Assembly: GCA_964632135.1 (NCBI GenBank)
Contig: CAZWEI010000001.1
Coordinates: 29,883 to 93,882 of the forward strand
Direction of reading: 5' to 3'
Origin: Candidatus Micrarchaeota archaeon
GTDB lineage: Archaea; Micrarchaeota; Micrarchaeia; Burarchaeales; JBFMAP01
Length of the DNA stretch: 64,000 nt
Both the position numbers and the translations under genes were made by a program. Below, piece by piece: positions 10,758 to 59,826 of the stretch (the first letter of the stretch is position 1; each line of letters starts with the position of its first letter). The notes under the pieces were generated by a model. The model had not been told where the DNA came from, ran no database searches, and worked only from the letters and a program-made list of their open reading frames with translations.

Positions 10758-12539
10758 TTAGCCCGCGCCGCCGCCCCCGCCACCGCCGCCTCCTCCGCCT
10801 CCACCACCAAAGCCGCCGCCGTGTCCCGAGGCTCCCATGGAGGTTGAGAAGGAACTGAAAGAAGAGTTGATGGAACTCAAACTGCTAAGAGCCGCAACGC
10901 CGCGCGCGGATGCGAACCACGCGGGGTGGTAATTTTTCTCATTTATTTGGAGTTTCATCGCCTCTATTACTTTGTCGGCGCACCCGAGCGCCGTCGCGTA
11001 GACGAGGTATTTGTCCCATATTATCACTGAAGATGGAGGGTATTGTTTTAGAAGAGTCAGGTCAGAGACGAAACGTTTGAACGCGCTCCACGTCTCGTAA
11101 TGCAGCGCGCCGTCCGGAGTTCTTTTCTGGAGGAATTTTTTTCCATAAACTATAATCACCGCGCATAGCAGTATCGAAACGAACAAACTCAAAATCGTAA
11201 GGACCAGAGCCGTCTCATCCGTGTCTATGATGTCCGCCAAGATGAATACAAACCCGAAGAGCGAGAGTACTAGGAGGGCTATTGACGCGAAGAACGCGTA
11301 ATTCGCAATCCTGGAAGCCTTCTCCTCATGGAATTTGTACTGCCTCGCATCCTTCGCGACCTTTTTCTGCCATGATTCAAACCACTTTGAAAAGGAAGTT
11401 CTGAAACTTGCGTCCTTTTTGAGCTCGCCTATCACCACCGAATCGGATGGAAATACCTCGAGGACTTCCCTCTCGTAATCATTCAATTTTTCATCCGGTG
11501 CCTTTAGTTTTGTTAGTTTCAGGTCCCTGTCCGAGCCGAACACGCCCAGGAATTTTCCCTTCCTTACCTCCTCAAGTTTGAGGTAGCGCCTCTGCGCGAG
11601 GTCTATTGTGGTCGCGATAAATGCGTTCATGTTCGGCTTCTTATTTTCAGCGTCCATGAGCGTGCTGAGAATCGCCGGGGAATAGCCGTAAGGGGGCTCG
11701 TGAAAATACGTCTGGTCAAATTGAACCTTTGGCTCCCTTCCGTAGAAGTGCCACAGAATTCCGATGACGAGGGCGAGAAGAAGCGGGATGAGAGGGGGGA
11801 GAAAGGGCGCGATGCCCGCGAGCGCCTCGTTCCTTTTTCTTGTTTCAAAATTCCTTTTTTCTTCTTCAATTATGTTTGCGAGACCATCGCCAGGCTTGTT
11901 TGCTGTGAATATGCTGTTTATTGCCTTGCTCGGAAAAACGACCCTCCCTTCTACAAACGTTCTCTGCGGGACGTTTAGGACTACGAAATCGACTCTTCCA
12001 TCAGAGATTGTGGTGAATCCGTTTTCAGGCCCGTGGCCCCACGCGAGTACATCCAATTTTTTTATTCCTGCGGGCAGGTAAACTACCGCGCGCACCACGT
12101 CGGCGCGCACTTCCCACTGGTCGCCGTGGAACTTCCAGTAGAAGTCAGCCACGTCGTCATAGCGGACTAGTTGGTTTTTCACAGTGTATTTTAGGGTGAA
12201 CGTTCGGCTCTCGTCTTGCGCGCTGAAGCGCCAGAGTATGCGCTGGCTATTGCCCTCCACGCTGATTTCCGGGGTTAGTTTTTTGCTTCCATCCAAAACC
12301 TGAATATCGGAAAGTGCTATCATTTGGCCTCCTGGACTCAGAAGGGAGACATCCTGGTACGCGAAAGTGAACGGGCCGGAAAATTTGAATGTGAGGTTTT
12401 CAACGACGTCGAAGGAGCCGTCAGAGTTAATCCAGACGCCGACATCGATATTTGAGAGGTAGTAGGACTTGGACAACGAAAGAGAACAGAAGGTAAGTAG
12501 CACAAACAGAACCGTGGATGTTCGCATAACAGACCTCAA
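10758..12539 (-). CDS. DUF2207-family membrane protein with C-terminal poly-Gly tail
   Basis: Signal peptide, a large N-terminal ectodomain, a TM segment, a cytoplasmic region, a second TM region, and a C-terminal GGGFGGGGGGGGGGGGGGAG run. This architecture is typical of DUF2207. Confidence 0.55.
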   Translation of the reverse strand: MRSVMRTSTVLFVLLTFCSLSLSKSYYLSNIDVGVWINSDGSFDVVENLTFKFSGPFTFAYQDVSLLSPGGQMIALSDIQVLDGSKKLTPEISVEGNSQRILWRFSAQDESRTFTLKYTVKNQLVRYDDVADFYWKFHGDQWEVRADVVRAVVYLPAGIKKLDVLAWGHGPENGFTTISDGRVDFVVLNVPQRTFVEGRVVFPSKAINSIFTANKPGDGLANIIEEEKRNFETRKRNEALAGIAPFLPPLIPLLLALVIGILWHFYGREPKVQFDQTYFHEPPYGYSPAILSTLMDAENKKPNMNAFIATTIDLAQRRYLKLEEVRKGKFLGVFGSDRDLKLTKLKAPDEKLNDYEREVLEVFPSDSVVIGELKKDASFRTSFSKWFESWQKKVAKDARQYKFHEEKASRIANYAFFASIALLVLSLFGFVFILADIIDTDETALVLTILSLFVSILLCAVIIVYGKKFLQKRTPDGALHYETWSAFKRFVSDLTLLKQYPPSSVIIWDKYLVYATALGCADKVIEAMKLQINEKNYHPAWFASARGVAALSSLSSINSSFSSFSTSMGASGHGGGFGGGGGGGGGGGGGGAG

Positions 12540-12542: not shown

Positions 12543-13253
12543 TCATATGAGCAGCATGCTCAACTCCTTTACTTCCATCTCTCCCTCTAATGCTTCCTTC
12601 AGCGTCACGTAGCACATCGGGCACGGGGTCACGAGAACGTCTGCGCGCGTGTCTATTGCGTGGCGCGCGCGCTCCTTTGCCACCGCCTTCGTGAGCGCGG
12701 GGAAGTTCGCCCTCATTCCGCCGCCTCCGCCGCAGCAGAAGGACTTGCTTTTCGCGAGCCTCATTTCCTTCACCTCGCAGCCGAGCGCGCGCAATATTTC
12801 TCTGGGCTCGTCGAAAACGCCGTGCTGCCTCAGTTTGCACGGGTCGTGGTATGTTACCTTTAGGTTGAGGGGCTTGAACTTCGCGCCCTTCTTCATCGCA
12901 TTCCAGATGGTTTGAGTGGCGTGCTCCGCGGGAATGTCACACTTTATGAGTTTCGGGTATTCGTAAGCGAACATCCGGTAGCAGGCAGGGCAGTTGCAAA
13001 TTATTCGCGCGACGCCGCGCTCCTTGAAGAGTTTGTAATTCTTCTCCGCGAGTGCGCGGGCATCATCCGCGTATCCTGCCGTGATGACCGGGAGACCGCA
13101 GCAGACCTCGAGGTCCTTGAGTTTTATGAAATCGATTCGCAGTTTTCCGAATATCTTCTCGTAATTATCCATTACGTCGCGGAGCGCGAACTTCGTTAAG
13201 CAACCCGGGTAGTAGAGCGTGTTCCCGCCCATGAACTTATCGAGAAGCCCCAT
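12543..13253 (-). CDS. cysteine-rich CCG-domain protein (HdrB/GlpC/LutA-like Fe-S subunit)
   Basis: Two CCG-type cysteine clusters: CCGLPV...CNCPACY and CCGGGGG...TPCPMCY. Confidence 0.65.
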   Translation of the reverse strand: MGLLDKFMGGNTLYYPGCLTKFALRDVMDNYEKIFGKLRIDFIKLKDLEVCCGLPVITAGYADDARALAEKNYKLFKERGVARIICNCPACYRMFAYEYPKLIKCDIPAEHATQTIWNAMKKGAKFKPLNLKVTYHDPCKLRQHGVFDEPREILRALGCEVKEMRLAKSKSFCCGGGGGMRANFPALTKAVAKERARHAIDTRADVLVTPCPMCYVTLKEALEGEMEVKELSMLLI

Positions 13254-13272
13254 TCGATCACTGCAAACGCAC

Positions 13273-14382
13273 TTACCAGTTAATCACGTTGATTGTCTTC
13301 AGCATTATCATTCCGAGCGCAATCATAACTATTCCCATGAGAAGTTTCATATATTTTCTCCTCCCGAGCCTCCACTCCTCCATCTTCTCCGCGGTGTAGC
13401 CGAAATTGAAAAGGATGAGGATGATGAACAGCGGAAGGACGAAGACCAGGTTGTAGAGGAGAAGGTCGAGTATCGCGGTCTGCGTCGAGCCGAGCGCGAG
13501 CATGCTCAATATCGCGAAATAGACGCCTCCTGTGCACGGGAGTTCGACGAGCGAGACGAGGATGCCGAGCGCAATCGCAGCAGGCATTGAAGCGCGATAA
13601 ACATAACCCTCTATCATCGGCTTGTATTTCGCCGGAATCTCGAGCGAGAACCACTTTCCGTAAAAGAAGAAATCCTTTATGTTCACGAGCCCGGCGAGAA
13701 TTGCGAGAACAGCCATTACCACGTAAACGACCATCACGACCTCGAAACTCTTTATCGTGGTGAGTATGCCCACGCCAGCGAGGAAATAAGTCACATAGAC
13801 TGCTGCGATGTATGCAAGCCCTATGCGCAGCGTGCGCGCCTTCGCGCCGATTGCGGTGATGTACGCGAGGAGGAAAATCATCACCGCGAACGCGCACGGG
13901 TTTATGCTGTCCACGACTGCGGCGAGTATTATCAGATAGAGGGGCGGCTCGATGTCTGCCGGGGTTATTTTTATATCCGCATTTGAGAGCGGGTCCCCGC
14001 AGTCGCGCGAGAGGCACTTGCCAACCTCATCCTCCAAATTCTTCTGTATCGGTCCGTCGCCGAAAAGATATTTGTCGCCTATGAAAACCATCGGCGTGGT
14101 GCAGTTCGCGCGCGGAATCGAGTAGTATTTGCAAAGCGCCTGAAGGTAGATTTGGTTTTTCCCAATGTCAGTTTCGAGACGCGTGACGTTCAGCGAGGGG
14201 TATTTCGGGAGCAGGTAGTGGTTTATGTAGCCGTCGACGTTCAGGCAGTGGGTGCAAGTCTGTGTGTAGAAAAAATAAAGTTGAATTTTGCTCGTGTTTG
14301 AATCTGCGCGAGCGGATGGTGCAAGTGAGATAAGCGAGAGGATGGCGATTAGGGTGAGTGCGGCGTTTTTCATTTTTATCAT
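13273..14382 (-). CDS. secreted thioredoxin-fold domain fused to a CcdA/DsbD-type transmembrane domain (thiol:disulfide electron-transfer protein), paralog 1
   Basis: Signal peptide, then Trx-like CTHC, then multi-TM with SINPCAF and LPCTGG cysteines as in CcdA. The 5' end overlaps paralog 2 by about 4 nt. Confidence 0.6.
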   Translation of the reverse strand: MIKMKNAALTLIAILSLISLAPSARADSNTSKIQLYFFYTQTCTHCLNVDGYINHYLLPKYPSLNVTRLETDIGKNQIYLQALCKYYSIPRANCTTPMVFIGDKYLFGDGPIQKNLEDEVGKCLSRDCGDPLSNADIKITPADIEPPLYLIILAAVVDSINPCAFAVMIFLLAYITAIGAKARTLRIGLAYIAAVYVTYFLAGVGILTTIKSFEVVMVVYVVMAVLAILAGLVNIKDFFFYGKWFSLEIPAKYKPMIEGYVYRASMPAAIALGILVSLVELPCTGGVYFAILSMLALGSTQTAILDLLLYNLVFVLPLFIILILFNFGYTAEKMEEWRLGRRKYMKLLMGIVMIALGMIMLKTINVINW

Positions 14383-15491
14383 ATTTTTATTGCACCCATC
14401 TGCTCTAAAATTATCGCCCCCACGAGTATGAGGGTCACTCCTATGAACAGCCTGAACGCGCCCCTGTTCTCCTCCCTCCATTTGTCTATTTTTTCAGGAG
14501 GAACCCCGAGATAGACGACCGTCGCGAGGATGATGAGCGGGAACACGAGCCCGAGGTTGAACGCCACGAGAAGGGGGAGCGCGCCCATCCTCACCGCCGC
14601 GTCGCTTGAGGCGGCGTTGCCGAGAATGTAGAGGTAGATCCCGCCGACGCAGGGCGCCTTCACGAGCGAGAAGAGCGCTCCCAGGAGGAACGAGGCGAGG
14701 AAATTCGCGCGGTACGTGAGCGACTCGATTATTTTCTTCGCGCCTGCAGGGGTTTCTATGAGTTTGCTGTGCGGGTTGTTGTAATCTTTCAAATACCACG
14801 CGCCGATTAGGATTACAAATGCTGCGATTATGTAATTCAGAAGTTTCACATCAATGTAACTTGATGCGCTGAGAAGCCCATAGCCCACCACGAGGTAGGT
14901 TGCAAAAATCCCGAGCGCGAAAAATATCGTGGTCATTATCAGGCGAGCCTTGCTCTTCGAGACCGCGAGCGAGTATGAGACGAGGAACAGAAGGACCGCG
15001 AAAAGGCAGGGGTTGAAGCCGGCAACAATACCAGTGAGGAAAACGCTCACGGGATTGAGGGTGGTAAGCCCAAGCGCGCGCAATATCGCATCAAGCAGCG
15101 AGGGGCTTTTCTCTATTCCTATGTCAACGCGCGGGCATTCTGTTTTCGTGCAGTTTTCAAGGAGCGCGCGCAACTGCATTTCGGATATCTCGCCCACGAT
15201 GAATGTCCTTCCCCCGAGAATCACTGTGGGAACCGCGCCCTCCTCGGGAGAATAGCCGAATTTCCCGTAGTCGCGCGCCATCGTTTCCCTGTTCGCGGCG
15301 TTCTCCCAGACCTCGAATTTCTGGATGTTCAACTCGTAATCGCTGCTGACTTTTTCCAGAAGTTTTTCGAAGTTCAGGCAGTGCGGGCACGTGCTTCCGT
15401 AATAAACGGTGATATCAATCGGCTTCGCGCTCGCTAGCGGAGGGAGAGCAAGCAAAAGCATCAGGATGAAAATCGATTTCTCGTGTTTCAT
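14379..15491 (-). CDS. secreted thioredoxin-fold domain fused to a CcdA/DsbD-type transmembrane domain, paralog 2
   Basis: Signal peptide, then CPHC, then TM domain with FNPCLF and APCVGG. Same architecture as the neighbouring gene. Confidence 0.6.
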   Translation of the reverse strand: MKHEKSIFILMLLLALPPLASAKPIDITVYYGSTCPHCLNFEKLLEKVSSDYELNIQKFEVWENAANRETMARDYGKFGYSPEEGAVPTVILGGRTFIVGEISEMQLRALLENCTKTECPRVDIGIEKSPSLLDAILRALGLTTLNPVSVFLTGIVAGFNPCLFAVLLFLVSYSLAVSKSKARLIMTTIFFALGIFATYLVVGYGLLSASSYIDVKLLNYIIAAFVILIGAWYLKDYNNPHSKLIETPAGAKKIIESLTYRANFLASFLLGALFSLVKAPCVGGIYLYILGNAASSDAAVRMGALPLLVAFNLGLVFPLIILATVVYLGVPPEKIDKWREENRGAFRLFIGVTLILVGAIILEQMGAIKI

Positions 15492-15492: not shown

Positions 15493-16335
15493 CTATTTCC
15501 CGTTTATCAGTGCCAGCGCTTTTTCGTGGATTTTCCTGTTCGCGCTCGCGACGAATGAAAGTTTTTCATTTATATCCAATGAGATTTTTAAATGCTTTCC
15601 GTCTCGTTCGGTGATTACCGCGCCTGCCTTCTGGGCGATGTGCATTCCGGGCACATGGACCGCAGGGAGGCTGCCGCGCACGTCAATGAACATTTGCGTA
15701 GCGCCGCTCGCGAGATAGCACAACCCCAAAACGTTCGCGCCTATCCTTCGTATATCTTTCACGCGCGAGAGGAGCGGAAGAAGGTCTGCGTAATTTCCTC
15801 TTTTGTTCTCATCCACCTCGACAATCAGACGCTCGAGCCTTGTTTCGCGCGAAGTTTGGATTTTCTTGTTGTTCTTGTAGGCAAACTTTTCATCCGCGTA
15901 AAACTCGTCTCCGTGGGAAAGGTCGCGCACATACGAAAAATAGATGTCATCGTAATCGCGCGAGCGCGAGAAGGAGAGCGCGATGCAGTAAAATGGAACG
16001 CCCAGCCCGAAGTTGTCAGAGCCGTCGAGCGGGTCGCAAACCACGATTCCCTCGCCCTTCTCCAATTCGCGCTCCGCGCGAATGGACCATTTGTCCTTCT
16101 GGACAAATTGGTCGCTCAATTCAACCTCGCCCTTTTCCTCTGTAACCAACACTCGCCCTATTCCCGCACGCTTTAGTTCTTCAATCGCCATATTTTCAAT
16201 CTCGACGTCCGCGCGTATGCTCCGCTGGCCTATCGCGTTCATCCCGAGCAGCTCGCGCGCATTTTTCTTTCTCGTTATTTCCACTGCGCGCGCCGAGAGC
16301 CGCCTGCAAACCCTCAGCAGCTTTCCCTTTTCCAT
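15493..16335 (-). CDS. suhB: inositol monophosphatase / archaeal fructose-1,6-bisphosphatase family protein
   Basis: LVTEEKGE, DPLDGSDNF, and a C-terminal IDVRG-type segment of the IMPase fold. Confidence 0.75.
   Translation of the reverse strand: MEKGKLLRVCRRLSARAVEITRKKNARELLGMNAIGQRSIRADVEIENMAIEELKRAGIGRVLVTEEKGEVELSDQFVQKDKWSIRAERELEKGEGIVVCDPLDGSDNFGLGVPFYCIALSFSRSRDYDDIYFSYVRDLSHGDEFYADEKFAYKNNKKIQTSRETRLERLIVEVDENKRGNYADLLPLLSRVKDIRRIGANVLGLCYLASGATQMFIDVRGSLPAVHVPGMHIAQKAGAVITERDGKHLKISLDINEKLSFVASANRKIHEKALALINGK
16062..16118. repeat. 57-bp segment of the suhB/IMPase-like gene; the parent copy of the 6245-6301 repeat
   Basis: On the minus strand it encodes SDQFVQKDKWSIRAERELE within the suhB/IMPase-like ORF. 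Confidence 0.8.
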
Positions 16336-16374
16336 GGGTTAAGTATAAAAAACAAATTATAAAAAGTGTTAGAT

Positions 16375-17415
16375 ATGGCTGGCGAGGTTTTCTTCTCAAA
16401 GGACAAGGGGAGGATAGCGGAGCTTGTTGAGCGCGTTCTCGATATTGACAGGGGCGACGTGGTCGCGGTGAAACTGCACATTGGCGAGCTCGGGAATAAG
16501 ACGCACGTTGGGCCAGAGGTCGCAAAAATTGTTGTTGAGAAGATTCGCGAGCACGGGGGCGAACCGTTTCTCACGGACACGCGCACCTGGTACAAGGGAA
16601 GCAGGAACAACGGCCGCTCGCACGTGCAGAACGCGCTCGCGCACGGGTTCGGGAAAGTTGGCGCGCCTTTCAAAGTAGCTGACGAGAGGGGCGGGTTGGA
16701 TTACGAGACGAGCGGCATTCTAAAAACTGTTGAATTGGGCGCGCTTTTTGAGAAAGCCAACTATTTGTTTGCAATCTCCCATGATAAGGGGCACATTCTC
16801 GCAGGGTTCGGGGGCGCGCTCAAGAATTTGGGGATGGGGTGCGCGACGCCAGCGTGCAAGCTCGCGCAGCATAGGACAGTGGGAATTGAGATTGATGAAA
16901 CGAAATGCACTGGATGCGGAAGGTGCGCGGAGGTTTGCGAGTACGCTGTTGTGCGCGAGGGAAAGCGCCGCGATGAAAATGAGAAGTGCTGGAGATGCCC
17001 GTCGTGCGGGGGGGAATGCCCGCAGAAAGCCGTAAGGCTCGTGAATCAAGAAAACCTGCAGCGCGCGCTTGCGTCAGTCTCGCTCGCGGTGAAGAATTTG
17101 TTCAAGGGAAACTGGGGCTTCCTTAGCGCGGGCATAAACATCACGCAGGAGTGCGACTGCGCTGTTGATTCAGGGAAAATAATTCACGAGGACGTGGGTT
17201 ATTTCTCCGCGCGCGACCCTGTTGCAATAGATGCCGCGTTTCTCGAGATGGTCGGAGCTGAAATTTTCGAGCGCGCAATTTTTTCGCAAAGCGAAAAAAT
17301 GCGCATTTTTCCCGAAGGGAAAAATTGCGCGAACAGGGTGAACCCAATCTGGCAGGTGAAGGAGGCCGAAAGTTTGGGGGTTGGGAGCGCGGAATATAAA
17401 CTCGTCTCGTTGTAG
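16375..17415 (+). CDS. DUF362-domain protein with ferredoxin-like 4Fe-4S cluster motifs
   Basis: CTGCGRCAEVCE and CWRCPSCGGECP motifs embedded in the DUF362 pattern. Confidence 0.55.
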   Translation: MAGEVFFSKDKGRIAELVERVLDIDRGDVVAVKLHIGELGNKTHVGPEVAKIVVEKIREHGGEPFLTDTRTWYKGSRNNGRSHVQNALAHGFGKVGAPFKVADERGGLDYETSGILKTVELGALFEKANYLFAISHDKGHILAGFGGALKNLGMGCATPACKLAQHRTVGIEIDETKCTGCGRCAEVCEYAVVREGKRRDENEKCWRCPSCGGECPQKAVRLVNQENLQRALASVSLAVKNLFKGNWGFLSAGINITQECDCAVDSGKIIHEDVGYFSARDPVAIDAAFLEMVGAEIFERAIFSQSEKMRIFPEGKNCANRVNPIWQVKEAESLGVGSAEYKLVSL

Positions 17416-21050: not shown

Positions 21051-21108
21051 ATCATATATCTAGTTCCTGTAACTTATTTTTAAATGTTATTCGCGAAAAT
21101 ACTTCTGT

Positions 21109-21274
21109 GCCAAGGTAACTCAGCCTGGTTAGAGTGCCAGAACTTTTCTTTGCAAAAAGAAAAGCGCGCGAAACTCATAAGCACAGCTTTGTGAGTAATG
21201 AGCCCTTGCGGCAATGATGTGCGAAGCAACCAGGTGAAATCTGGAAGTCGCGAGTTCAAATCTCGCCCTTGGCA
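21109..21274 (+). tRNA. intron-containing tRNA (about 92-nt intron in the anticodon arm); isotype unresolved (Lys-UUU-like or non-canonical)
   Basis: Acceptor GCCAAGG/CCTTGGC+A73; D arm ACTC-AGCCTGGTTA-GAGT; anticodon stem CCAGA ... TCTGG split by the intron (which contains a 9-bp hairpin cttttcttt/aaagaaaag); variable loop AAGTC; T arm GCGAG-TTCAAAT-CTCGC. No encoded CCA. Confidence 0.6.
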
Positions 21275-21285
21275 CTTTTATTTTT

Positions 21286-21804: not shown

Positions 21805-21817
21805 TCGTCTCACCAGG

Positions 21818-22963: not shown

Positions 22964-23054
22964 GCGATAGTGTTATTGGCCGTGATTTAAAAACGTTCGG
23001 TTGCATCTTTTCGCGCGCGAGATTCGACCCAGTTCACAGCCCCCAGCCCACAGC

Positions 23055-23064
23055 CCGGCCCACA
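23055..23064. repeat. 10-bp target-site duplication CCGGCCCACA (left copy)
   Basis: Identical 10-mer at 29618-29627, each directly abutting a terminal inverted repeat. Confidence 0.6.
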
Positions 23065-23079
23065 AGCTTTGCACACAAA

Positions 23080-24372: not shown

Positions 24373-24445
24373 CTTTTAGTATATTACTAATAGGTATATG
24401 TGAACCTACATGTTTATATACCTTTTGGTAACATATCAATAGTAT

Positions 24446-43722: not shown

Positions 43723-46143
43723 CTACTGTAATAAAAGGCATTTTCCCTCACCTAAGTTACAATCTGAGTAGCAGCAGTCCCAATCATCGCTACAATCTCC
43801 TCCATCGGGAACACACGCAACACCACCACATATACCGCTAGTGCATGATACGCCAGGGCAACAGTCGCTATCCTGAGTGCACTCTTCGCCGTTAATTCGA
43901 CATGACTTACATTTGTAACCTGTAGTATCGCAATAGCCCGCATATTGGACGTCCTGAATGTCGTCGTAGGATCCGCAGCATTGGTACACCCCTATTTCAC
44001 CAAACAATATGCGCTCTTGCTCCAGGGTAAAAGAGGATGCGGCGCCGCGCTGGTCCTTAGGCGTAAACAGCATAACTCCTGTGCCTGGACCTTTGGATAG
44101 CCCAACTTGACAATTGGAGCCTGTAGCAACACAATACGCGCATGTGTTGTTGGTACCGTAACAAAACGCTCCATCCTCGTGATAGCAACACTCATCACTG
44201 GTTGCACACATTCTGCCTAATGCCGTGCATTCCGGGCAGATATTGGCTGCGTCACACGTAACGGCGGGGTTGCAGCAGTCCCTGTATTTTTCACCGGTTC
44301 CACTGTCAACACCACAACCCCAATAACCCGTAAGAGTGCAGTTCTGGCACGTTCCTTCGTAGCAAGCCGCGTCGTATCCATAGCCCATCGTATTTTCATT
44401 ATAACCGCAGCAGTCCTCGTTTTGCGTGCAGCTCTCGGTCAAGGCGCTGCATAATGGCGGAATGTAGCGGCACGTGCAGTCCGTCGCGTTTACCGCCCAG
44501 TTTATGGGACATGTTACGCCGGAGCAGTCGCACTGGCAGTTACTGTCGTTGCGCTTTCCGCCCGCTGTTTCGTTGCAGGAGTTCTGGCAGTCGCATGAGC
44601 AGTCGGTAGTGAGGTGTATGGGTTGGTTGTTGCACATCGTTTCTGAAATCTGCTGCTGTCTTGCGGGGTCGCCGCAGTTGCACGCGCAGTCCATGTTGTA
44701 CGTGCCTCCGTGGCAGTCGTTTGAGCAGTGGCAGACGCAGTACTCGTCAAGAGCCCCGCCAAACGCGCACGTCGCATTCGTGCAGTCGCAGGTGCAGTCA
44801 GGATAAGGCGCCTGCTGCTCGCCGTTGCAGCTCCAGTAACAAGACGAGGACGAGTATGAACAACCCCATCCCTCCTTGCAGCAAAGCCCGTTTGGATTGC
44901 AGTAAAAGCCAGTGCAGCATGTTTCGTTGTCGCTTTCGTTGTAAGGACCTACTTTGCAATTTGACGGGTGGTGCGTGCATATGGATTTGGGGAATTTGAA
45001 TTCGCATCGTTCGGTCGTGGAGTTGCAGGTATAGCCTGGGCAGCACGGGGCAGAGGAATTGCAGGGCAATGGATTTGCGCAATGAACGCAAGTCCCATGG
45101 GAATCAGTGCAGCAGTTTTGAGTACTGTTCCAAACCGAACCGTACGGACAGCAACTAGACGTAGGGCAGGTTGCTGGATATGCTACGGGATCGCATGTTC
45201 TTTCCGCCGGGCATGCAAAAACGCACACCCCGGCGCTGTTGGTACAGCATTTCTGGGTCGCATTCCAAACAGCGCCGGCTGGACAGCAGCCCGAGGAGGG
45301 GCAGGTTATCGGATAGAGCATATGGCTGCACATTCTTTTTGCAGGGCATGACGGAGTTGTTGCGCATTCCCCGGTGCCGTCTAAGCAGCAGGGTTCAGGG
45401 GAGGAACCGCTGGCACCCCAACTGGTGCCGGACGGACAGCAGCCTGAGGATGGGCACGTCGCGGGATTAGCCGCTGGATTACACGTTCTTTCTATTGGGC
45501 AGAAAGAAACGCAAACTCCGGCGCTGTTTGTGCAGCAGTTTTGCGTTGTGTTCCAAATTGTGCCGACAGGGCAGCAATCCGTCGCGGGGCATGTTGCGGG
45601 GTGAGCGGAATGGCTGCACTCTCTCGCTGTCGGGCATATGAATAGGCACGTTCCGAAGTTGTCAAGGCAGCAATTTTGTGTATTATTCCAAACCGTAAAT
45701 TTTGGACAACAGCCGGAGGATGGACAAGTTTCAGGGTATGCCGACGGATTGCACCGCATGTCAGGCAGACAAAGAGATGAAATGCATTTCATTTGATGGC
45801 AAACAGAATCAGGACAGCATGCGTATGGATCTCCTTGAGGCACGCCAACTTTGCATTTGGGCGGATTTGAACAAGAGATGTAGGCGCATATTCCGTATTT
45901 GTCAGTGCAGCAGTTCTGAACAGTGTCCCAAACCGTGTTTGTAGGGCAGCATCCTGATGGAGGACACACCGCGGGGTATGCCGATGGGTCGCATTGCCGA
46001 GCAGTTGGACAAGTTGGCTTGACCGGAACAACCCCGCTTGTTTTGCATAGGAGCGCGATTAGGAGAAGCAGGATCATGCCTCCTACAAGAACCCCGAGTT
46101 TCTCTTGCGGTGAAGAGCCGGGACGGGCAGGCATTGGTTCCAT
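43723..46143 (-). CDS. 806-aa secreted or anchored Cys-rich tandem-repeat glycoprotein
   Basis: N-terminal signal/anchor; at least six ~45-aa repeats of the form C..A.P..CP.SGCCP.G..WN.TQNCCT.S.G.CV (visible also as ~135-bp DNA repeats); about 110 Cys in total; many N-x-S/T sequons. Confidence 0.55.
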   Translation of the reverse strand: MEPMPARPGSSPQEKLGVLVGGMILLLLIALLCKTSGVVPVKPTCPTARQCDPSAYPAVCPPSGCCPTNTVWDTVQNCCTDKYGICAYISCSNPPKCKVGVPQGDPYACCPDSVCHQMKCISSLCLPDMRCNPSAYPETCPSSGCCPKFTVWNNTQNCCLDNFGTCLFICPTARECSHSAHPATCPATDCCPVGTIWNTTQNCCTNSAGVCVSFCPIERTCNPAANPATCPSSGCCPSGTSWGASGSSPEPCCLDGTGECATTPSCPAKRMCSHMLYPITCPSSGCCPAGAVWNATQKCCTNSAGVCVFACPAERTCDPVAYPATCPTSSCCPYGSVWNSTQNCCTDSHGTCVHCANPLPCNSSAPCCPGYTCNSTTERCEFKFPKSICTHHPSNCKVGPYNESDNETCCTGFYCNPNGLCCKEGWGCSYSSSSCYWSCNGEQQAPYPDCTCDCTNATCAFGGALDEYCVCHCSNDCHGGTYNMDCACNCGDPARQQQISETMCNNQPIHLTTDCSCDCQNSCNETAGGKRNDSNCQCDCSGVTCPINWAVNATDCTCRYIPPLCSALTESCTQNEDCCGYNENTMGYGYDAACYEGTCQNCTLTGYWGCGVDSGTGEKYRDCCNPAVTCDAANICPECTALGRMCATSDECCYHEDGAFCYGTNNTCAYCVATGSNCQVGLSKGPGTGVMLFTPKDQRGAASSFTLEQERILFGEIGVYQCCGSYDDIQDVQYAGYCDTTGYKCKSCRINGEECTQDSDCCPGVSCTSGICGGVACVPDGGDCSDDWDCCYSDCNLGEGKCLLLQ
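45100..46020. repeat. tandem ~135-bp coding repeats (Cys-rich module array)
   Basis: Repeated DNA segments such as ...gcaaactccggcgctgtttgtgcagcagttttgcgttgtgttccaaa... and ...gcacaccccggcgctgttggtacagcatttctgggtcgcattccaaa.... Confidence 0.6.
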
Positions 46144-46187: not shown

Positions 46188-49100
46188 CTATTCGGCGCGG
46201 CATTTGTACTCATCGTACAACTGCATTATGCGCGAGGGATCGCACATCGTGCTGTTCGTCTCGTTTGCAGCGCACATCGTCATCGTCAATCCTTGCGAGC
46301 GGTAGTAATAGTCCGCGCATCCCTTGAACCATTCCTCGAATCCCTCCTTGCGCGCGTAAGCAGGCGGACCGGTGGTCAAACCGTAATTACCCGTGAGCGG
46401 CTGGCACGTGCCGTCCATCAGGCAGTATTGCGCGATTCCGGAAATCCCGGCGCCTGTGAGTTGGTATGTTTCTTTTTCGTACATTTCCGCGAACGCAGCG
46501 CCGACGCCTTTTCCGGCGCACGCGCCGACGCCCACGCCTTCCAGATTATAGGAGAGAATAACTGTCGGCTTTGTGTAATTGTACACCACGAACCTCGAAA
46601 GATTTTTAATCTCGTCCCACGCCCTGCTCGCGTTGCACACGCATTCTCCTCCTGTCTCCTCGCATATTGAACTCGTGTTCGCGAAAACGATGAAACCCAC
46701 CATGTCGGTGCTGTTGCGCGCGAGCCGCATTATGTTTTGTATATCAGCCTCTGTCGCGCCTGGAAGCCTGACCGCGAAAGTGGTCGTGCAGTTCGCGCAC
46801 TCTTTCGTGATGTTTTTCAATTGGTCCGCGATGCAGTTTTGATTTGAAAGGGGGATGGAGATGTCCTGCGTGAGAAGCGTGGGCCACGAGGGGCCGAACG
46901 GGTTGTATTTTTTGTAGTAGAACTTGTCCCAGAAAGGAGTCATGTACTCTGGATTGTTGTCAAGATAACTGTTCAGTTTTTGCGCGAGAGGAACAACGTC
47001 CGCCCCTGAGCAGGCGCCAGGGGCAAGAGTGATGAGGAGCGAGAGGCCGGTCGAGACGTCTGTTATTGTTATATCTACGGACGGCATCGTAATGCACTGC
47101 GTCTCGTTCGGCGCGAGGGAAATTAACGCAGGTAGCGGGGGCGGATTTGGCGCGAGCGAAAGTTGGTGGTTCCTGTTGTCCAGATTGTAGAAGCATATCC
47201 GCGTCCCTTCTTTCGCGCTCATATTCATCGAAGGCTCGAAGAGTTGGTCGATTATCGGGACCACGATGTCGTACGTGTAACTGACTATCCCCTCGCGGTT
47301 GTTGCTCACGCAGTCGATGAGCGTGTGCCTTCCCACATCTGGCGACCAGCAGTACGGGCTCGTCTGGTTTATGGTCGGGAGCAGGCTCGCGTTGTAGCCC
47401 CCTCCTGGACGCTCCTGGATGAGAAGGAGCCTGTACCCCCCTGCGTATGCGCCGCTCGCATTCCAGCAGACCGTGCTGCCCGGCGAAGTTGTCACGACCT
47501 CCTGCGAGAAGTTCATCTCAGCGAGGGAAACCTCTCTCGTGCCGCCGACAATCGGCATAGTCACATCAACGGTCATGCAGCCCATCTGGCTGCTGTCAAA
47601 GGTTGAAGGACAACTCACCTCAGGGACGTACAGCGTCATTCTTGTCGGCGGGGTTACGTCGCATATTCTTAAACTATAATCGCCTCCTCCGACATCCTCG
47701 AGTTGTATTTTCACTGCCGAGCGCGCGGGAACAACTACGTTTGGCGGCGAGACAGGAACGACCCACGCGTACTGGCCGGCAGGAAGGCCGGTGAAGCAAA
47801 CGCTATCATCCTCGTGCACGGATAGAGTGCTCCACGGGGACGGGCTGGTCAGATCCGGATCGTTCATATCTATGTCCGCGCCATAGTAGAATGTTTCCGT
47901 GGAGGAGCGTTTGCAGGTGGAAATACTTACGTGCGTGGCGAAGGTGAGCGCGATCGGGAAGGTCATGTTCGCGCCCGCAGCAAGGTGGTATTCCACGCCA
48001 TTGAGCGAGAACCATCTCGCATACGCGCCGCCGTTGTTGATAATTTTTGGAATCACCCTGCTGTAGCGCACCCCTTTATCAAGCATCGAATAGGAGCACC
48101 AGCAGAGATTCCACACGTTCTGGTCAGTGCAGTTGTCATAAACCCAGTCGCCGCAAAAGTCATCTATGCATTTGTCAAACGGCTGCTGCAGGGTGAGGTT
48201 GATCGCCGAGGTATCGGTGAACTCGCTTGAGTTCAGAACGTTCATATTGAATTTCTTGTGATCGCCAAAAATATCGCGGTAATAGACTTCATACGAGCCG
48301 ACCGGGAAGTTGAAGCACTGGCCGTTGCTGAATCTGAAGCCATTGAAGAAATTGTAATCTATCGAAAGGACTCTGTCCTTGTACCCGCGGTTTTTGAAGT
48401 AGAGCTCGTTATTGTTTGTCGTGAGCGTTGAGGGAGTGAACGGGGCGAATGTGAGGCTTATGATCGCGCTCAGGTTTTGGACATCTACAGTATATCTGCG
48501 CGCGGACACGTCGTCTTCGAGCACGTACGAGCCAGCAGAGATGTTTGAGACGTTGCGCGTTCCGCCTGGCGGGAGGGTTAGCGACCCTAGCCACGAGCCG
48601 CTCTGCGCGAGAGTGTGGCTCAAGCGGTCGATGTTCCTCCAGGAGACGTTGCTTCCCGCGGGCACGCCGTAATATTCATCGAGCAGCAGGCCGGAAATAT
48701 CAACGCGCATGGTCTCATCCGCGCCCCCGCTGTTGAAAACGAGCGCGGTCAGGACATCCTGATTCAGGAGGTCTTTCAGGTTCATCAGCGTGACAGTCCC
48801 TATGTCCCCGAAAACATCCTGGACCGCGAGCCCGAGGCTCAAATTCGATTCGGTCGCAGGGCCGATGAAATAAACGTCCTGCGAGAACGCCTTCGACTCC
48901 TGGATGATGAGCGTGCTCGTCGCGTTCGCGGTCGCATTGTCTGTTGCATTTATTGGATATTCGTACTCGTAGTAGAACTGCCTCACGCCTACTGTGGAGG
49001 GTACTGAAGACTCGAGGTCCCAGAAAATTCGCTGGTTCGGACTTACGGTCTGCCCGGTCCAAAAGTCCATTGGAACGTCCACTGTTCTGGTGCGCGCGAA

Positions 49101-58071: not shown

Positions 58072-59826
58072 TCATATGAACTCCGCAAGACCGGTTATTC
58101 TCGCCTCTCCTCCGAGAGCTGTTGAGAGCGAGCGCATCGCCGTTACAACTATTATCAAATCAAGTATTGGGAAGACGAACGCTGCGATGATGGGCTGCAT
58201 CATCCAGGGCACGGCGTCGGCGTAATAATCAAAACCGCTTCCAGCCACTTCGCCAACTCCCGGATAGAAAACGCTCGCGATCATGACAAGAACGAAAGCG
58301 ATGATTTGGATGAACGCCCACACCATGCTCCATATCCACATTATTATTGCAAAAAAGAAACACCAGGGGAACTTCCACCACTTGTCGCAGTAGTGCGAGA
58401 ACCTCGGGCCCTGGAACGCGTCGGTTATGCTCCCCATGTCGAGCATTTTCAGCGGGAGAGCGCCCCAGTATTCTTCCCGCGGTATCGGGGTAACCGAGCT
58501 GTATATCTCGTTGTTCATGACAAGGGTGAGCGGATAAACTACGTACGCGCCTATTGCGACCGCCATCAGCGTCGCGCCCAATTTCCTCGTGAGCGTGAAC
58601 GAGCGCAGGACGACGCCTATTGGCAGGAATATTTTGAACATCGTCTCTGAGATGAATTGGAGTAGGACGAACTGTCCTATCATCGAGAAGAGCGCGAGCG
58701 AAATGAGGTTCGCGCCCGTGTTTATTATATTGGAAATTATCGAAAGTCCGTAGAATGGCGAGAACGAAAAGGAGAACCCCAGGAAAATTGGGAACAGGCC
58801 TATCACCGGGGGCGGTACTGCCCCGGCGCCCCCTTCTGAAGGAGGCTTGGGGCACTGCTTCCCGATGCACGTGCCAAAGCCCGCGCCTCCTCCGAGATAC
58901 TGAATCAGACCTATCCCGAACTCCGCCTTCACTGTTTTTCCAAATGCGGCGAGGAGGTCGCCTGACACGCGGTTCGTGTAGCCCTGCGCTATGCTCATGT
59001 AGTCCTCGCCGCTGACAGTCCCAAAGTCTTGGATGACGGTGTTGGACAAAAAGACGAGGAATATTATGCTGCCCACGAACCACACGGAAACGGAAACCTC
59101 CACGAATTCCCTTCTCGCGTAAGCGTGGAGTTCAGGGGAATGGAGGAATGAGGCGACCATTATCAGCAGCGCGACTAGCATGTAGCCGATTATTAGCGCG
59201 ACGAGCGTTATCGGAACCCATGTGTTCCACGCGTCAACCGTGAGCGTGCTGCCGAGAATCGAGGACGAGAAATTCGTGCACGCGTTGTTAAAGCAGTACT
59301 GGCCGCCTGAGCATGGGCAGTCCTCGCAGCAGAAGGAGGTGTTTTCAAAATATGGCGAGCCGGAATCGCAGGTCCCGTTGTAGTTGCAGCATGGGGTGAC
59401 GAGGCGCGTGGCGCACGCTCCCCAGTGGCAGTATTTTTCTCTGCAGATTTCAGTCGCAGGGCCTATGCAGCCCGGCGCAGGCGCGCCGTTGATTCCGACA
59501 TACTCGCATTTGGAGGTCACCGCTTCCAAAGGGGCGTACACCACGTCGTCACTCGCGTTGTATAGAACGCACGTTTTGTAGCCGCATATAAAGAGCTCGT
59601 AGCACTGGCATTGGGTATCATTGTATATGCAAAAAGGCGTGTCGTCCCTGACGCACTTATACGTATCCGGATCGCAGCGCTCGAGCGTGCACGGCTCCTT
59701 GTCGTGGTCGCATTGGGTTAGGTTTGCTGAGAACGGGTCGCAGGACTCCCCGAGCGCGTGAGCGGGCTTGGCGAACAAAAACAATATCACAAATAGTAAC
59801 ACGATTGTCTTTGGCAAGGAGTTCAT
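58072..59826 (-). CDS. polytopic membrane protein, same paralog family, member 6 (signal peptide plus ~200-aa Cys-rich N-terminal ectodomain)
   Basis: More than 30 Cys in the first 200 aa; ARREFVEV; FLPIGVVLRSFTLTRKLGATLMAVAIGAYVVYPL; C-terminal TALGGEARITGLAEFI. Confidence 0.55.
   Translation of the reverse strand: MNSLPKTIVLLFVILFLFAKPAHALGESCDPFSANLTQCDHDKEPCTLERCDPDTYKCVRDDTPFCIYNDTQCQCYELFICGYKTCVLYNASDDVVYAPLEAVTSKCEYVGINGAPAPGCIGPATEICREKYCHWGACATRLVTPCCNYNGTCDSGSPYFENTSFCCEDCPCSGGQYCFNNACTNFSSSILGSTLTVDAWNTWVPITLVALIIGYMLVALLIMVASFLHSPELHAYARREFVEVSVSVWFVGSIIFLVFLSNTVIQDFGTVSGEDYMSIAQGYTNRVSGDLLAAFGKTVKAEFGIGLIQYLGGGAGFGTCIGKQCPKPPSEGGAGAVPPPVIGLFPIFLGFSFSFSPFYGLSIISNIINTGANLISLALFSMIGQFVLLQFISETMFKIFLPIGVVLRSFTLTRKLGATLMAVAIGAYVVYPLTLVMNNEIYSSVTPIPREEYWGALPLKMLDMGSITDAFQGPRFSHYCDKWWKFPWCFFFAIIMWIWSMVWAFIQIIAFVLVMIASVFYPGVGEVAGSGFDYYADAVPWMMQPIIAAFVFPILDLIIVVTAMRSLSTALGGEARITGLAEFI

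What the first reader, a model, noticed from the sequence alone, without database searches (positions are those of the whole stretch)
12543..15491. Tandem signal-peptide / thioredoxin / CcdA fusion proteins next to an HdrB-like CCG protein: a dedicated extracytoplasmic thiol-disulfide pathway
Two adjacent paralogs each fuse an exported CxxC thioredoxin fold (CTHC, CPHC) to a CcdA/DsbD-type membrane electron conduit with its two signature cysteines. A cytoplasmic two-CCG-domain protein (heterodisulfide-reductase-B-like) is encoded immediately downstream in the same tightly packed minus-strand gene string, together with a DUF2207 membrane protein and the suhB/IMPase-like gene. Given the extraordinary cysteine content of the surface proteins encoded at 43.7-60 kb, this could be the disulfide isomerisation or oxidation support system for them.
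Basis: inference. Interest (0 to 1): 0.55.

Follow-up and report, generated by a model that had tools for sequence, protein, structure and literature searches.

The report
Membrane thiol relay paired with iron-sulfur protein
A small archaeon encodes two exported thioredoxin/membrane-relay fusion proteins next to a heterodisulfide-reductase-like iron-sulfur protein. One of these pairings recurs across many tiny-celled archaea and bacteria together with lactate-dehydrogenase-like genes, which points to an undescribed way of powering disulfide chemistry outside the cell.

Summary
A tightly packed minus-strand string in a Micrarchaeota contig encodes an IMPase-like protein, Trx-CcdA "A", Trx-CcdA "B", a stand-alone two-CCG protein and a DUF2207 protein.

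A and B are old paralogs (29% identity) from two distinct subfamilies. Both have a signal peptide, a CxxC Trx/Grx fold predicted to face outward, six TM helices, and Pro-Cys motifs in TM1 and TM4.

The new result is comparative. The B→CCG gene pair is conserved: 23 of 61 informative B-anchored metagenome loci, and 12 of about 17 loci of the CCG ortholog clade. It spans Micr-, Pace-, Woese-, Aenigmat- and Parvarchaeota, Patescibacteria and one Chloroflexi.

The pair almost always sits with either a LutB/LldF-like protein or a GlcD-like flavoprotein plus small ferredoxin. These are split forms of NAD-independent lactate dehydrogenases. Every such partner ends in a vicinal Cys-Cys (…LYCC).

DUF2207, IMPase and DUF362-Fer4 are not conserved partners. 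The window itself has no dehydrogenase partner in 64 kb.

Best reading (about 0.5): the CCG protein is the cytoplasmic redox partner of the B relay, probably feeding electrons outward. I found no description of it in the searchable literature.

The parts
14379..15491 (-). Trx-CcdA fusion A (370 aa). Signal peptide nt 15426-15491. CPHC nt 15378-15389. TM1 Cys162 nt 15006-15008. TM4 Cys281 nt 14649-14651.
   Evidence: Weak Thioredoxin_3/Glutaredoxin Pfam hits. Its identical database copy P0001 carries a precomputed PF13386 hit, and homologs carry PF02683/PF13386. 118 of 120 homologs keep NPCL[LF] and 115 of 120 keep APCVG. dN/dS 0.11 against L007.
13273..14382 (-). Trx-CcdA fusion B (369 aa from the likely start; the ORF extends to 14481). 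Signal peptide nt 14305-14382. CTHC nt 14245-14256. TM1 Cys163 nt 13894-13896. TM4 Cys283 nt 13534-13536. Highly conserved TM3-TM4 loop, predicted cytoplasmic, nt 13594-13683.
   Evidence: Distinct DPANN-wide family whose TM domain hits PF11139 in 25 of 27 members. Invariant C43, C46, P162-C163, P282-C283, K236, D237, F239, Y241, I249, P250. AF2 pLDDT 87.6. dN/dS 0.15.
12543..13253 (-). Stand-alone two-CCG iron-sulfur protein (236 aa; HdrB / LutA-LldE-like). CCG1 Cys18..Cys91 nt 12981-13202. CCG2 Cys139..Cys214 nt 12612-12839.
   Evidence: PF02754 x2, E 1.3e-33. All ten motif Cys are invariant. The family profile hits the CCG part of mycobacterial EtfD (9ojn, 2e-37) and HdrB (1e-19). No signal peptide and no TM segment.
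10758..12539 (-). DUF2207 membrane protein (593 aa), last gene of the string. Probably not part of the redox module.
   Evidence: PF09972, PF20990; the only other occurrence is L004 (Micrarchaeota), 3.6 kb from an A-type gene. Absent from all other B-CCG loci.
15493..16335 (-). IMPase/FBPase-like gene, first gene of the string. Co-located only in this lineage.
   Evidence: The neighbourhood is shared only with the 89%-identical MAG fragment L007.
16366..17415 (+). Divergently encoded DUF362 protein with an inserted 2x[4Fe-4S] ferredoxin motif. A candidate electron carrier by position only.
   Evidence: hhalign against LutB-like proteins matches only the ferredoxin motif. Not a recurrent neighbour.
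43723..46143 (-). 806-aa membrane-anchored protein with 129 Cys (16%). Possible client of an extracytoplasmic thiol-disulfide system.
   Evidence: Cys count. No Pfam family. The link to the operon is inference only.
46188..51854 (-). 1888-aa protein with 73 Cys. Possible client.
58072..59826 (-). 584-aa signal-peptide protein with 28 Cys. Possible client.

Best explanation
The core of the finding is a conserved two-gene unit.

What the parts are (shown):
- B is an exported Trx/Grx-fold domain fused to a six-helix CcdA/DsbD-like two-cysteine membrane relay.
- Directly downstream is a cytoplasmic HdrB/LutA-like protein with two CCG domains. By homology these carry two non-cubane [4Fe-4S] sites.

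How it most likely works (inferred):
- The CCG protein is the cytoplasmic redox partner of the B relay. It takes the role that thioredoxin plays for classical CcdA/DsbD.
- In related organisms the CCG protein is wired to one of two interchangeable NAD-independent lactate (2-hydroxyacid) dehydrogenase modules. One is LutB/LldF-like. The other is a GlcD-like flavoprotein plus a small ferredoxin.
- Those partners end in a C-terminal Cys-Cys tail, which may act as a swinging thiol/disulfide arm between the CCG clusters and the membrane cysteines.
- Electrons would then run: 2-hydroxyacid, then Fe-S/FAD, then CCG, then (CC tail), then the TM Cys pair, then the outward-facing CxxC domain, then extracytoplasmic disulfides.
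- This would keep an outer reductase/isomerase charged without NADPH. In cells that probably lack quinones (not tested here) it would also give the dehydrogenase an electron acceptor.

The window's version is a lineage-specific variant:
- A second, differently related Trx-CcdA (A) is inserted upstream and translationally coupled to B.
- No dehydrogenase or CC-tail partner lies within 64 kb. Its electron source is either encoded elsewhere or different.

Gene content, topology and conserved linkage are shown. Physical coupling, direction of flow and substrate are inferred.
For: Anatomy:
- Signal peptides, CxxC, six TM helices, Pro-Cys in TM1 and TM4.
- The positive-inside pattern places the Trx domain outside (residue count on the sequence with helix boundaries).
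- The CCG protein keeps both complete Cys motifs and matches HdrB.

Linkage anchored on CCG:
- 12 of about 17 loci of the ortholog clade have a Trx-CcdA gene within 2 kb on the same strand.
- None of about 67 loci with more distant CCG proteins does.

Linkage anchored on B:
- CCG lies directly downstream in 23 of 61 informative metagenome loci, with a median gap of about 25 nt.
- The same holds in the two nearest non-trivial relatives, L174 (Micrarchaeia) and L175 (Parvarchaeota).
- Unbiased clustering of neighbours over 97 loci ranks CCG first (33 loci), then the Fd/LutB-like cluster (24) and GlcD-like (17).

Clustering is selected, not inherited synteny:
- Gene order is shuffled between lineages while the genes stay together (L008, L021, L023, L175), and flanking genes differ.

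The dehydrogenase slot:
- Two non-homologous lactate-dehydrogenase-type modules occupy the same position.
- Their domain sets equal LldEF and a split Dld-II as described in PMC4481167.

The C-terminal tail:
- A C-terminal [YFT]CC is present in 26 of 26 LutB-like or ferredoxin partners of the DPANN/CPR/Chloroflexi CCG clade. In 25 of these a Trx-CcdA gene is seen in the same locus.
- It is absent in 9 of 9 homologs next to more distant stand-alone CCG proteins without CcdA.

Other:
- The loop of B predicted to face the cytoplasm is nearly invariant.
- Purifying selection on A and B.
- Consensus CxxC of the B family is CPHC. That is the DsbA-type dipeptide, which in known enzymes gives a high redox potential. 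A high-potential domain could be reduced by lactate (E0' about -190 mV). This last step is my own knowledge and inference.
Against: - The window has no LutB-like, GlcD-like or CC-tail ferredoxin gene in 64 kb.
- About 60% of informative B-family loci lack an adjacent CCG gene.
- CCG orthologs in another Micrarchaeota lineage and in Falkowbacteria are not next to CcdA.
- No CcdA-CCG fusion protein was seen among the best 150 representatives.
- The best solved-structure match of the CCG profile is EtfD, where the CCG part serves quinone-linked electron transfer, not disulfide reduction.
- L104 carries ordinary Trx and TrxR genes just upstream of the module, so conventional donors coexist with it.
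- To my knowledge, reduction of a membrane-embedded disulfide by a CCG protein has not been demonstrated.
- Direction of flow is argued from thermodynamics and from the known bias of iLDH-type enzymes, not measured.
Confidence: 0.5

Rival explanations
1. Metabolic enzyme plus independent envelope reductase. The CCG protein is simply the LldE/LutA-like (or Dld-II C-terminal-like) subunit of an NAD-independent lactate or glycolate dehydrogenase whose other subunits are encoded elsewhere in this genome. A and B are ordinary CcdA-type relays fed by cytoplasmic thioredoxin. The adjacency reflects co-regulation, or use of the membrane protein as an anchor, without electron exchange through the Cys pair.
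For: - The CCG ortholog sits beside LutB-like or GlcD-like+Fd genes in relatives.
- CCG-LutB-like pairs exist without CcdA in methanogens and Falkowbacteria.
- Trx and TrxR are present next to one module.
- A-type relatives have no CCG neighbour.
Against: - It does not explain why CCG is the top-ranked neighbour of the B family across phyla and across gene-order rearrangements.
- It does not explain why the CC tail is present in 26 of 26 partners in the CCG clade that carries the CcdA gene and absent from 9 of 9 homologs in loci without it.
- Anchoring would not need the conserved Cys pair or the fused CxxC domain.
Confidence: 0.22
2. Oxidative direction. The outward CPHC/CTHC domains act as DsbA-like oxidants that form disulfides in the Cys-rich surface proteins. 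Electrons return inward through the TM Cys pair to the CCG protein, which would oxidise thiols as TfrB does in thiol:fumarate reductase. They are then dumped on a cytoplasmic acceptor such as pyruvate or glyoxylate through the LutB-like or GlcD-like enzyme. This would be a DsbB/VKOR substitute in quinone-less cells.
For: - The CPHC consensus is the DsbA active-site dipeptide (own knowledge).
- No VKOR or DsbB was found among the window ORFs scanned.
- Extremely Cys-rich exported proteins are present in the window.
- The best NCBIfam hit of the CCG protein is TfrB.
Against: - Flavin/Fe-S lactate dehydrogenases of these types are known as lactate oxidisers (own knowledge; PMC4481167).
- Pyruvate/lactate (-190 mV) is a poor sink for a DsbA-like couple (about -120 mV).
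- The CxxC dipeptide varies widely within both families (CTKC, CSHC, CSKC, CLAC).
- CcdA/DsbD relatives are known only as outward electron conduits (own knowledge).
Confidence: 0.15
3. No functional relationship in this window. The five genes are merely packed together in a small genome, and the CCG gene's position is a remnant of a decayed module that lost its dehydrogenase genes.
For: - The dehydrogenase and CC-tail partner are absent locally.
- DUF2207 and IMPase are lineage-specific neighbours.
- Mobile elements lie nearby.
Against: - All catalytic Cys are retained in B and in the CCG protein.
- dN/dS is 0.11-0.15 for A and B against the related MAG.
- The CCG protein is 91% identical to its homolog P0121.
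- The 19-nt B-CCG gap matches the conserved operonic pair seen elsewhere.
Confidence: 0.08

Closest known systems
CcdA / DsbD-beta with a periplasmic thioredoxin-fold partner (DsbD, CcdA-ResA/CcmG, ScsB-ScsC, SoxV-SoxW)
   Same: A polytopic membrane protein with one essential Cys in TM1 and one in TM4, each next to Pro, passes reducing equivalents to an extracytoplasmic CxxC thioredoxin-fold domain. The N-terminus lies outside.
   Different: - The known electron donor is cytoplasmic thioredoxin/NADPH. Here the conserved neighbour is a CCG iron-sulfur protein plus lactate-dehydrogenase-like modules.
- The B-type TM domain is so divergent that a family profile does not reach the solved CcdA sequences. 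Pfam files it under SfLAP (PF11139), not DsbD_TM.
- The Trx domain is fused N-terminally.
HdrB / HdrD and DsrK (CCG-domain disulfide reductases; DsrK acts on the Cys-bearing C-terminal arm of DsrC)
   Same: - Two CCG domains with complete CX(n)CCX(n)CXXC motifs. The profile matches HdrB at 1e-19.
- DsrK-DsrC is a precedent for a CCG protein working on a protein-borne Cys pair on a flexible C-terminal arm at the membrane surface (own knowledge).
   Different: - No HdrA/HdrC or DsrM partner here.
- The substrate is unknown.
- The Cys-Cys tail sits on the ferredoxin or LutB-like subunit, not on a DsrC-like protein.
- The window copy has no tail-bearing partner nearby.
NAD-independent lactate dehydrogenases LutABC/LldEFG and Dld-II (GlcD-GlcF type)
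   Same: Domain sets are identical. LldE/LutA is two CCG domains. LldF/LutB is LUD plus Fer4_8. Dld-II is FAD_binding_4, FAD-oxidase_C, Fer4_8 and two CCG domains (PMC4481167).
   Different: - No LutC/LldG-like gene was seen in the modules.
- Dld-II is split into three genes.
- A Trx-CcdA gene is part of the cluster.
- Partners carry a C-terminal CC.
- The organisms are DPANN/CPR, which probably lack the quinone usually assumed as acceptor (not tested here).
- In the window only the CCG subunit is present.
Thiol:fumarate reductase TfrAB
   Same: The best NCBIfam hit of the CCG protein is the C-terminal half of TfrB (2.1e-38, far below cut-off). It is a precedent for CCG domains coupling a thiol/disulfide couple to an organic-acid redox couple.
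   Different: TfrB carries extra Fe-S domains and pairs with a fumarate-reducing flavoprotein. The curated cut-off is not met (132 versus 385 bits).
Mycobacterial EtfD (PDB 9ojn)
   Same: It is the best solved-structure sequence match of the CCG family profile (E 2e-37, residues 494-723).
   Different: EtfD is a 1042-residue membrane protein that links ETF to the respiratory chain. It has no Trx or CcdA component.

Membership tests
CcdA/DsbD superfamily of transmembrane thiol-disulfide relays | Six TM helices (3+3) in the core | tested here: met
   Hydropathy gives six TM segments after the Trx domain in both A and B. The AF2 model of B has helices 148-178, 181-212, 216-240, 266-295, 300-326 and 331-367 (pLDDT 87.6). 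The 3+3 internal repeat was not examined.
CcdA/DsbD superfamily of transmembrane thiol-disulfide relays | One conserved Cys in TM1 and one in TM4, each adjacent to Pro | tested here: met
   A has NPC162 and APC281. B has NPC163 and LPC283. These are invariant in alignment A2 and present in 115-119 of 120 homologs of each family.
CcdA/DsbD superfamily of transmembrane thiol-disulfide relays | Match to curated family profiles (PF02683, PF13386, NF001419) above cut-off | tested here: inconclusive
   - Window proteins have no Pfam TM-domain hit at E<0.01.
- NCBIfam DsbD scores 24.8 and 19.5 bits against a cut-off of 330.
- A's identical database copy P0001 has a precomputed PF13386 hit, and A homologs carry PF02683/PF13386.
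- B homologs hit PF11139 SfLAP in 25 of 27 and PF02683 in 4 of 27.
- The PDB profile search and Foldseek reach only Trx/Grx folds, not CcdA.
CcdA/DsbD superfamily of transmembrane thiol-disulfide relays | N-terminus and partner Trx-fold domain on the extracytoplasmic side | tested here: met
   Sec-type signal peptides with AxA-like sites are present in both proteins. K+R in B is 14 on predicted inner loops versus 2 on outer loops (residue count on the sequence with helix boundaries). This is a prediction only.
CcdA/DsbD superfamily of transmembrane thiol-disulfide relays | Reduced by cytoplasmic thioredoxin | not testable with these tools
   No Trx or TrxR gene was found among the window ORFs scanned. 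The conserved neighbour is a CCG protein instead.
Thioredoxin/glutaredoxin fold | Beta-alpha-beta-alpha-beta-beta-alpha fold with CxxC at the N-terminus of helix 1, and a cis-Pro loop | tested here: met
   - AF2 elements E33-39, H44-60, E64-70, H74-86, E98-101, E104-107 and H109-126.
- Foldseek hits Trx/Grx structures with target TM-score 0.55-0.66.
- Invariant P97 in the 'GVP' loop.
- Pfam Trx/Grx hits are below cut-off for A and present in 16 of 27 B-family members.
HdrB-type CCG proteins (PF02754) | Two CCG domains, each with CX31-39CCX35-36CXXC | tested here: met
   PF02754 x2 at 115 bits against a cut-off of 20.6. Motif Cys are C18, C51, C52, C88, C91 and C139, C173, C174, C211, C214, all invariant. 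The profile hits HdrB structures at 1e-19.
HdrB-type CCG proteins (PF02754) | Works with HdrC/HdrA on the CoM-S-S-CoB heterodisulfide | tested here: not met
   No HdrA or HdrC gene is in the window. NCBIfam HdrB models score 30-43 bits against cut-offs of 345-450. It is therefore not an HdrB ortholog.
LutABC / LldEFG L-lactate dehydrogenase | CCG subunit encoded with LutB (LUD+Fer4_8) and LutC (LUD) | tested here: not met
   - The window has no LutB-like ORF in 64 kb.
- Twelve related B-CCG loci have a LutB-like gene.
- No separate LUD-only ORF appeared among the hits in those searches.
Dld-II / GlcDEF-type D-lactate or glycolate dehydrogenase | FAD_binding_4 plus FAD-oxidase_C flavoprotein with a Fer4_8 plus two-CCG iron-sulfur part | tested here: not met
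   The window has no GlcD-like or Fer4_8 ferredoxin ORF. Sixteen or more related loci have them as separate genes next to B-CCG, including the nearest Micrarchaeia relative L174.

The most novel reading that the evidence does not exclude
DPANN archaea and CPR bacteria possess an undescribed NADPH-independent envelope redox system.

- A lactate (2-hydroxyacid) dehydrogenase of the LldEF or split Dld-II type would hand electrons to the cysteine pair of a divergent CcdA-like membrane protein, instead of to quinone.
- The hand-over would run through its HdrB-like CCG subunit and a swinging C-terminal Cys-Cys tail.
- The membrane protein would then reduce its own fused outward-facing CxxC domain.
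- This would identify a physiological disulfide acceptor for the CCG subunit of this enzyme class. It would amount to a 'disulfide-respiring' or isomerase-charging pathway in cells that probably lack quinones.
- The window carries a trimmed version (A+B+CCG) that may serve its 16%-cysteine surface protein.
Probability: 0.33. Interest if true: 0.8.

Novelty: new variant of a known kind. Interest (0 to 1): 0.62.

Why it matters
- CcdA/DsbD relays are known to draw electrons from thioredoxin. A conserved pairing with an HdrB-like Fe-S protein and lactate-dehydrogenase modules would be a new input route for envelope disulfide chemistry.
- It would give a concrete, testable candidate for the natural acceptor of the CCG subunits of LutABC/Dld-II-type enzymes, which to my knowledge has not been firmly established.
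- It would also bear on how tiny symbiotic archaea and bacteria with very Cys-rich surface proteins manage extracellular disulfides.
- For this window specifically, it turns an anonymous '(Fe-S)-binding protein' and two 'cytochrome c biogenesis proteins', in a lineage not expected to make c-type cytochromes (not checked here), into a defined and experimentally approachable module.

Tried and rejected
- Nearest A-type orthologs (about 45% identity, L001-L006) and a methanogen A-type gene (L172) were inspected for CCG neighbours. None was found, so A is not the CCG-linked partner.
- DUF2207, IMPase and DUF362-Fer4 were tested as recurrent neighbours across 170+ loci. They are not.
- DUF362-Fer4 was tested as a LutB substitute by hhalign. 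Only the ferredoxin motif matches.
- A search for CcdA-CCG 'Rosetta-stone' fusions among the best 150 of 1.84 billion representatives found none.
- A search of the window for LutB-like, GlcD-like, Fer4_8 ferredoxin or any ORF ending in CC/YC found nothing plausible.
- Literature searches for a CcdA/CCG/LutAB/DPANN connection found no description.
- No tRNA genes were found in the window.
- Complex prediction of B with CCG was not attempted.

Full report
**What is in the window.**
The window is archaeal. The protein encoded at 14379-15491 is identical to a database protein on a 138-kb NCBI contig. Its 89%-identical relative is annotated Candidatus Micrarchaeota.

On the minus strand, five ORFs follow each other with gaps of -4 to 19 nt:
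- an IMPase/FBPase-like gene (15493-16335);
- Trx-CcdA fusion A (14379-15491);
- Trx-CcdA fusion B (ORF 13273-14481; likely start 14382, where its ATG overlaps the stop of A as ATGA);
- a 236-aa protein made of two CCG domains (12543-13253);
- a DUF2207 membrane protein (10758-12539).

A DUF362 protein with an inserted ferredoxin motif (16366-17415) is encoded divergently. Pfam and NCBIfam confirm CCG x2 (E 1.3e-33), DUF2207, Inositol_P and DUF362+Fer4.

**The two fusion proteins.**
- Both start with a Sec-type signal peptide.
- Both carry a CxxC (A: CPHC; B: CTHC) in a Trx/Grx-like domain.
- Both continue into six hydrophobic helices, with Asn-Pro-Cys in the first and Pro-Cys in the fourth.

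An AlphaFold2 model of B built on 27 homologs is confident (pLDDT 87.6, pTM 0.75). It shows a thioredoxin fold (residues 33-126) followed by six long helices and one short loop helix. Foldseek matches the N-terminal domain to thioredoxins and glutaredoxins with target TM-score about 0.6.

Lys+Arg residues number 14 on the loops predicted to face the cytoplasm and 2 on the others (counted by hand on the sequence, using the helix boundaries). Together with the signal peptides, this places the Trx domains outside the cell.

Curated-profile support for 'CcdA' is weak. There is no Pfam TM hit for the window proteins, and the NCBIfam DsbD hits are far below cut-off. Family profiles and Foldseek do not reach the solved CcdA entries. 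I therefore call these CcdA/DsbD-like on the basis of architecture and the conserved Pro-Cys pairs, not as proven family members.

A and B are only 29% identical and belong to different subfamilies:
- A-type proteins have NPCL[LF]/APCVG motifs and hit PF02683/PF13386. Relatives occur in Methanothrix, ANME-2 and other Micrarchaeota.
- B-type proteins have NPCAF/LPCTG motifs and mostly hit PF11139. They are spread through DPANN archaea.

Both are under purifying selection against the related MAG fragment, with dN/dS 0.11 and 0.15.

**The CCG protein.**
Both CCG domains keep all five motif cysteines, and these are invariant in 25 homologs. The ~240-aa stand-alone form is 50-58% identical across Micr-, Aenigmat-, Pace- and Woesearchaeota, 'Ainarchaeum', Thermoplasmata and Falkowbacteria.

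A family profile matches the CCG part of mycobacterial EtfD (9ojn, 2e-37) and HdrB (about 1e-19). NCBIfam hits (TfrB, LdhH, GlpC, HdrB) are all far below cut-off. It is an HdrB-like fold, not an HdrB ortholog.

**Is the adjacency meaningful?**
I anchored on each gene in turn.

Anchored on CCG (genome scan, 80 loci):
- The ortholog clade has a Trx-CcdA gene within 2 kb on the same strand in 12 of about 17 distinct loci.
- None of about 67 loci with more distant CCG proteins has one. Most of those are 400-aa ferredoxin+CCG forms.

Anchored on B (metagenome scan, 80 loci):
- CCG lies directly downstream on the same strand in 23 of 61 loci with enough sequence. The median gap is about 25 nt.
- The two closest non-trivial relatives of B (52% identity) also show the pair.

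Unbiased clustering of all neighbours within 4 kb over 97 loci ranks CCG first (33 loci). Next come a ferredoxin/LutB-like cluster (24), a GlcD-like cluster (17) and a small DUF7343 wHTH membrane protein (10).

Flanking genes differ between lineages. Gene order within the cluster is shuffled (for example L008, L021, L023, L175), which argues for selection on clustering rather than inherited synteny.

A-type relatives show no such neighbour. DUF2207, IMPase and DUF362-Fer4 are not recurrent neighbours.

**What travels with the pair.**
Two alternative partners fill the same slot.
- A ~425-aa LUD_dom+Fer4_8 protein (LutB/LldF-like) is found in 12 loci.
- A ~380-aa FAD_binding_4+FAD-oxidase_C protein (GlcD-like) plus a ~120-135-aa Fer4_8 ferredoxin is found in 16 or more loci.

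Together with the CCG protein, these reproduce the domain sets of the two NAD-independent lactate dehydrogenase types described for Shewanella and Desulfovibrio: LldEFG (minus LldG) and a Dld-II split into three genes (PMC4481167).

For the family, that is met. But the complex is clustered with the Trx-CcdA gene, so the two readings merge.

One locus (L104) also has Trx and TrxR just upstream. Another (L175) has NifS and NifU upstream.

**An unexpected correlate.**
Every LutB-like protein (13 of 13) and every small ferredoxin (13 of 13, including L174 and L175) in the loci of this CCG clade ends in GNP[FY]G-x8-12-[YFT]CC-COOH. In 25 of these 26 loci a Trx-CcdA gene is seen. The exception is the short Falkowbacteria contig L016.

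Nine of nine homologous proteins next to more distant stand-alone CCG genes in methanogens and other lineages without CcdA lack this tail.

Some Micrarchaeota CCG proteins that are not CcdA-adjacent carry their own C-terminal '...KLAKYC' extension.

By analogy with the DsrC arm used by DsrK, the C-terminal CC of MerA and the GCUG tail of mammalian TrxR (own knowledge), I propose the tail is a mobile thiol/disulfide arm. This is inference.

**How it most likely works.**
Shown: gene content, predicted topology and conserved linkage.

Inferred:
- The CCG protein is the cytoplasmic redox partner of the B relay.
- Electrons come from a 2-hydroxyacid through Fe-S/FAD to CCG.
- They then pass, perhaps by way of the CC tail, to Cys163/Cys283 and to the outward CxxC.

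I favour outward flow for three reasons:
- Both interchangeable partner modules are lactate-oxidising enzyme types.
- CcdA/DsbD relatives are outward conduits.
- The predominant CPHC dipeptide of the B family is the DsbA-type dipeptide, which in known enzymes gives a high redox potential that lactate (about -190 mV) could reduce.

The last two points are my own knowledge. The nearly invariant loop of B predicted to face the cytoplasm (K236, D237, F239, Y241, I249, P250) is a plausible docking site.

The oxidative alternative cannot be excluded. In that reading the system is a DsbB/VKOR substitute that dumps electrons on pyruvate or glyoxylate, as TfrB does with fumarate.

**The window's own version.**
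This version is atypical. No LutB-like, GlcD-like, Fer4_8 ferredoxin or CC-ending ORF exists in the 64 kb. An extra A-type fusion is translationally coupled upstream of B. The nearest Micrarchaeia relative of B (L174) has the full B-CCG-GlcD-Fd set.

Either the partner is encoded elsewhere in this genome or the lineage uses another donor. DUF362-Fer4 is a positional candidate only, since hhalign matches nothing but the ferredoxin motif.

The Cys-rich proteins exist (16% Cys in an 806-aa protein) and have no Pfam family. Their connection to the operon is untested.

**Comparison with what is known, and novelty.**
The system works like a DsbD/CcdA pathway on the outside and like an HdrB/DsrK- or LldE-type Fe-S module on the inside. 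It fails the curated thresholds or partner requirements for HdrB, LutABC and Dld-II membership in this window.

Six full-text literature searches found no description of a CcdA-CCG or CcdA-lactate dehydrogenase link. Subscription literature is not covered.

I rate it a new variant of a known kind, of moderate to high interest. The coupling itself remains an inference from conserved gene neighbourhood.

Noticed in passing
L008, L009, L012-L014, L016, L021-L023, L050, L093-L163, L174, L175 (related loci; not in the window): All LutB-like proteins and small Fer4_8 ferredoxins in the loci of this CCG clade end in a vicinal Cys-Cys (...GNPFG-x8-12-LYCC-COOH; 26 of 26). A Trx-CcdA gene is seen in 25 of these loci. 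Homologs in nine loci without CcdA lack the tail (0 of 9).
   Followed up: partly
window 14379-14382: The stop codon of fusion A and the likely start codon of fusion B overlap as ATGA, which suggests translational coupling. The longer ORF call for B (start 14481) would overlap A by 103 nt.
   Followed up: yes
window 43723-46143 (-): An 806-aa membrane-anchored protein with 129 cysteines (16%) and no Pfam family. Neighbouring ORFs at 46188-51854 (73 Cys) and 58072-59826 (28 Cys) are also Cys-rich orphans.
   Followed up: partly
window ~19800-29600: A low-GC stretch (0.44-0.48 against about 0.53) carries a TnpB/OrfB_IS605 gene (19798-20931), a DDE transposase (23080-24372), a C-5 cytosine methylase (25891-26880), a Schlafen/AlbA_2 protein (26894-28345), Vsr (28389-28841) and an Eco47II-type restriction endonuclease (28857-29582). 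It is probably a mobile or defence island.
   Followed up: partly
alignment A1: P0182, P0228, P0240 (Micrarchaeota CCG proteins; L010): These CCG proteins are not next to a CcdA gene. They carry a C-terminal extension ending ...LPKNSKLAKYC, reminiscent of the ...KLYCC tail of the ferredoxin and LutB-like partners. The window's CCG protein has no such tail.
   Followed up: no
L104:6091-7328: A conventional thioredoxin and thioredoxin reductase pair lies immediately upstream of the DUF7343-B-CCG-GlcD-Fd module in this metagenome locus.
   Followed up: no
L015:2898-7680 and L016:201-3669 (Falkowbacteria / Patescibacteria): Here the CCG gene follows a ~497-aa ORF, and in L015 also 311- and 412-aa ORFs. 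From their sequences these look like AMP phosphorylase, ribose-1,5-bisphosphate isomerase and form-III RuBisCO (not checked with any profile). In L016 the CCG gene is followed by a LutB-like gene with the CC tail. No CcdA gene is seen nearby.
   Followed up: no
L008, L009, L012, L014, L021, L104, L106, L107, L161: A small membrane-anchored winged-helix protein (DUF7343, about 155 aa) recurs directly upstream of the B-type gene. It is a possible dedicated regulator. It is absent from the window.
   Followed up: partly
window 14100-14130 and 14000-14015 (B residues 84-94 and 123-128); A residues 114-119: Both Trx domains carry extra cysteines beyond the CxxC (A: CTKTEC; B: C84, C94 and CLSRDC). 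These are only partly conserved in the families. They may be structural disulfides or a second redox site.
   Followed up: no
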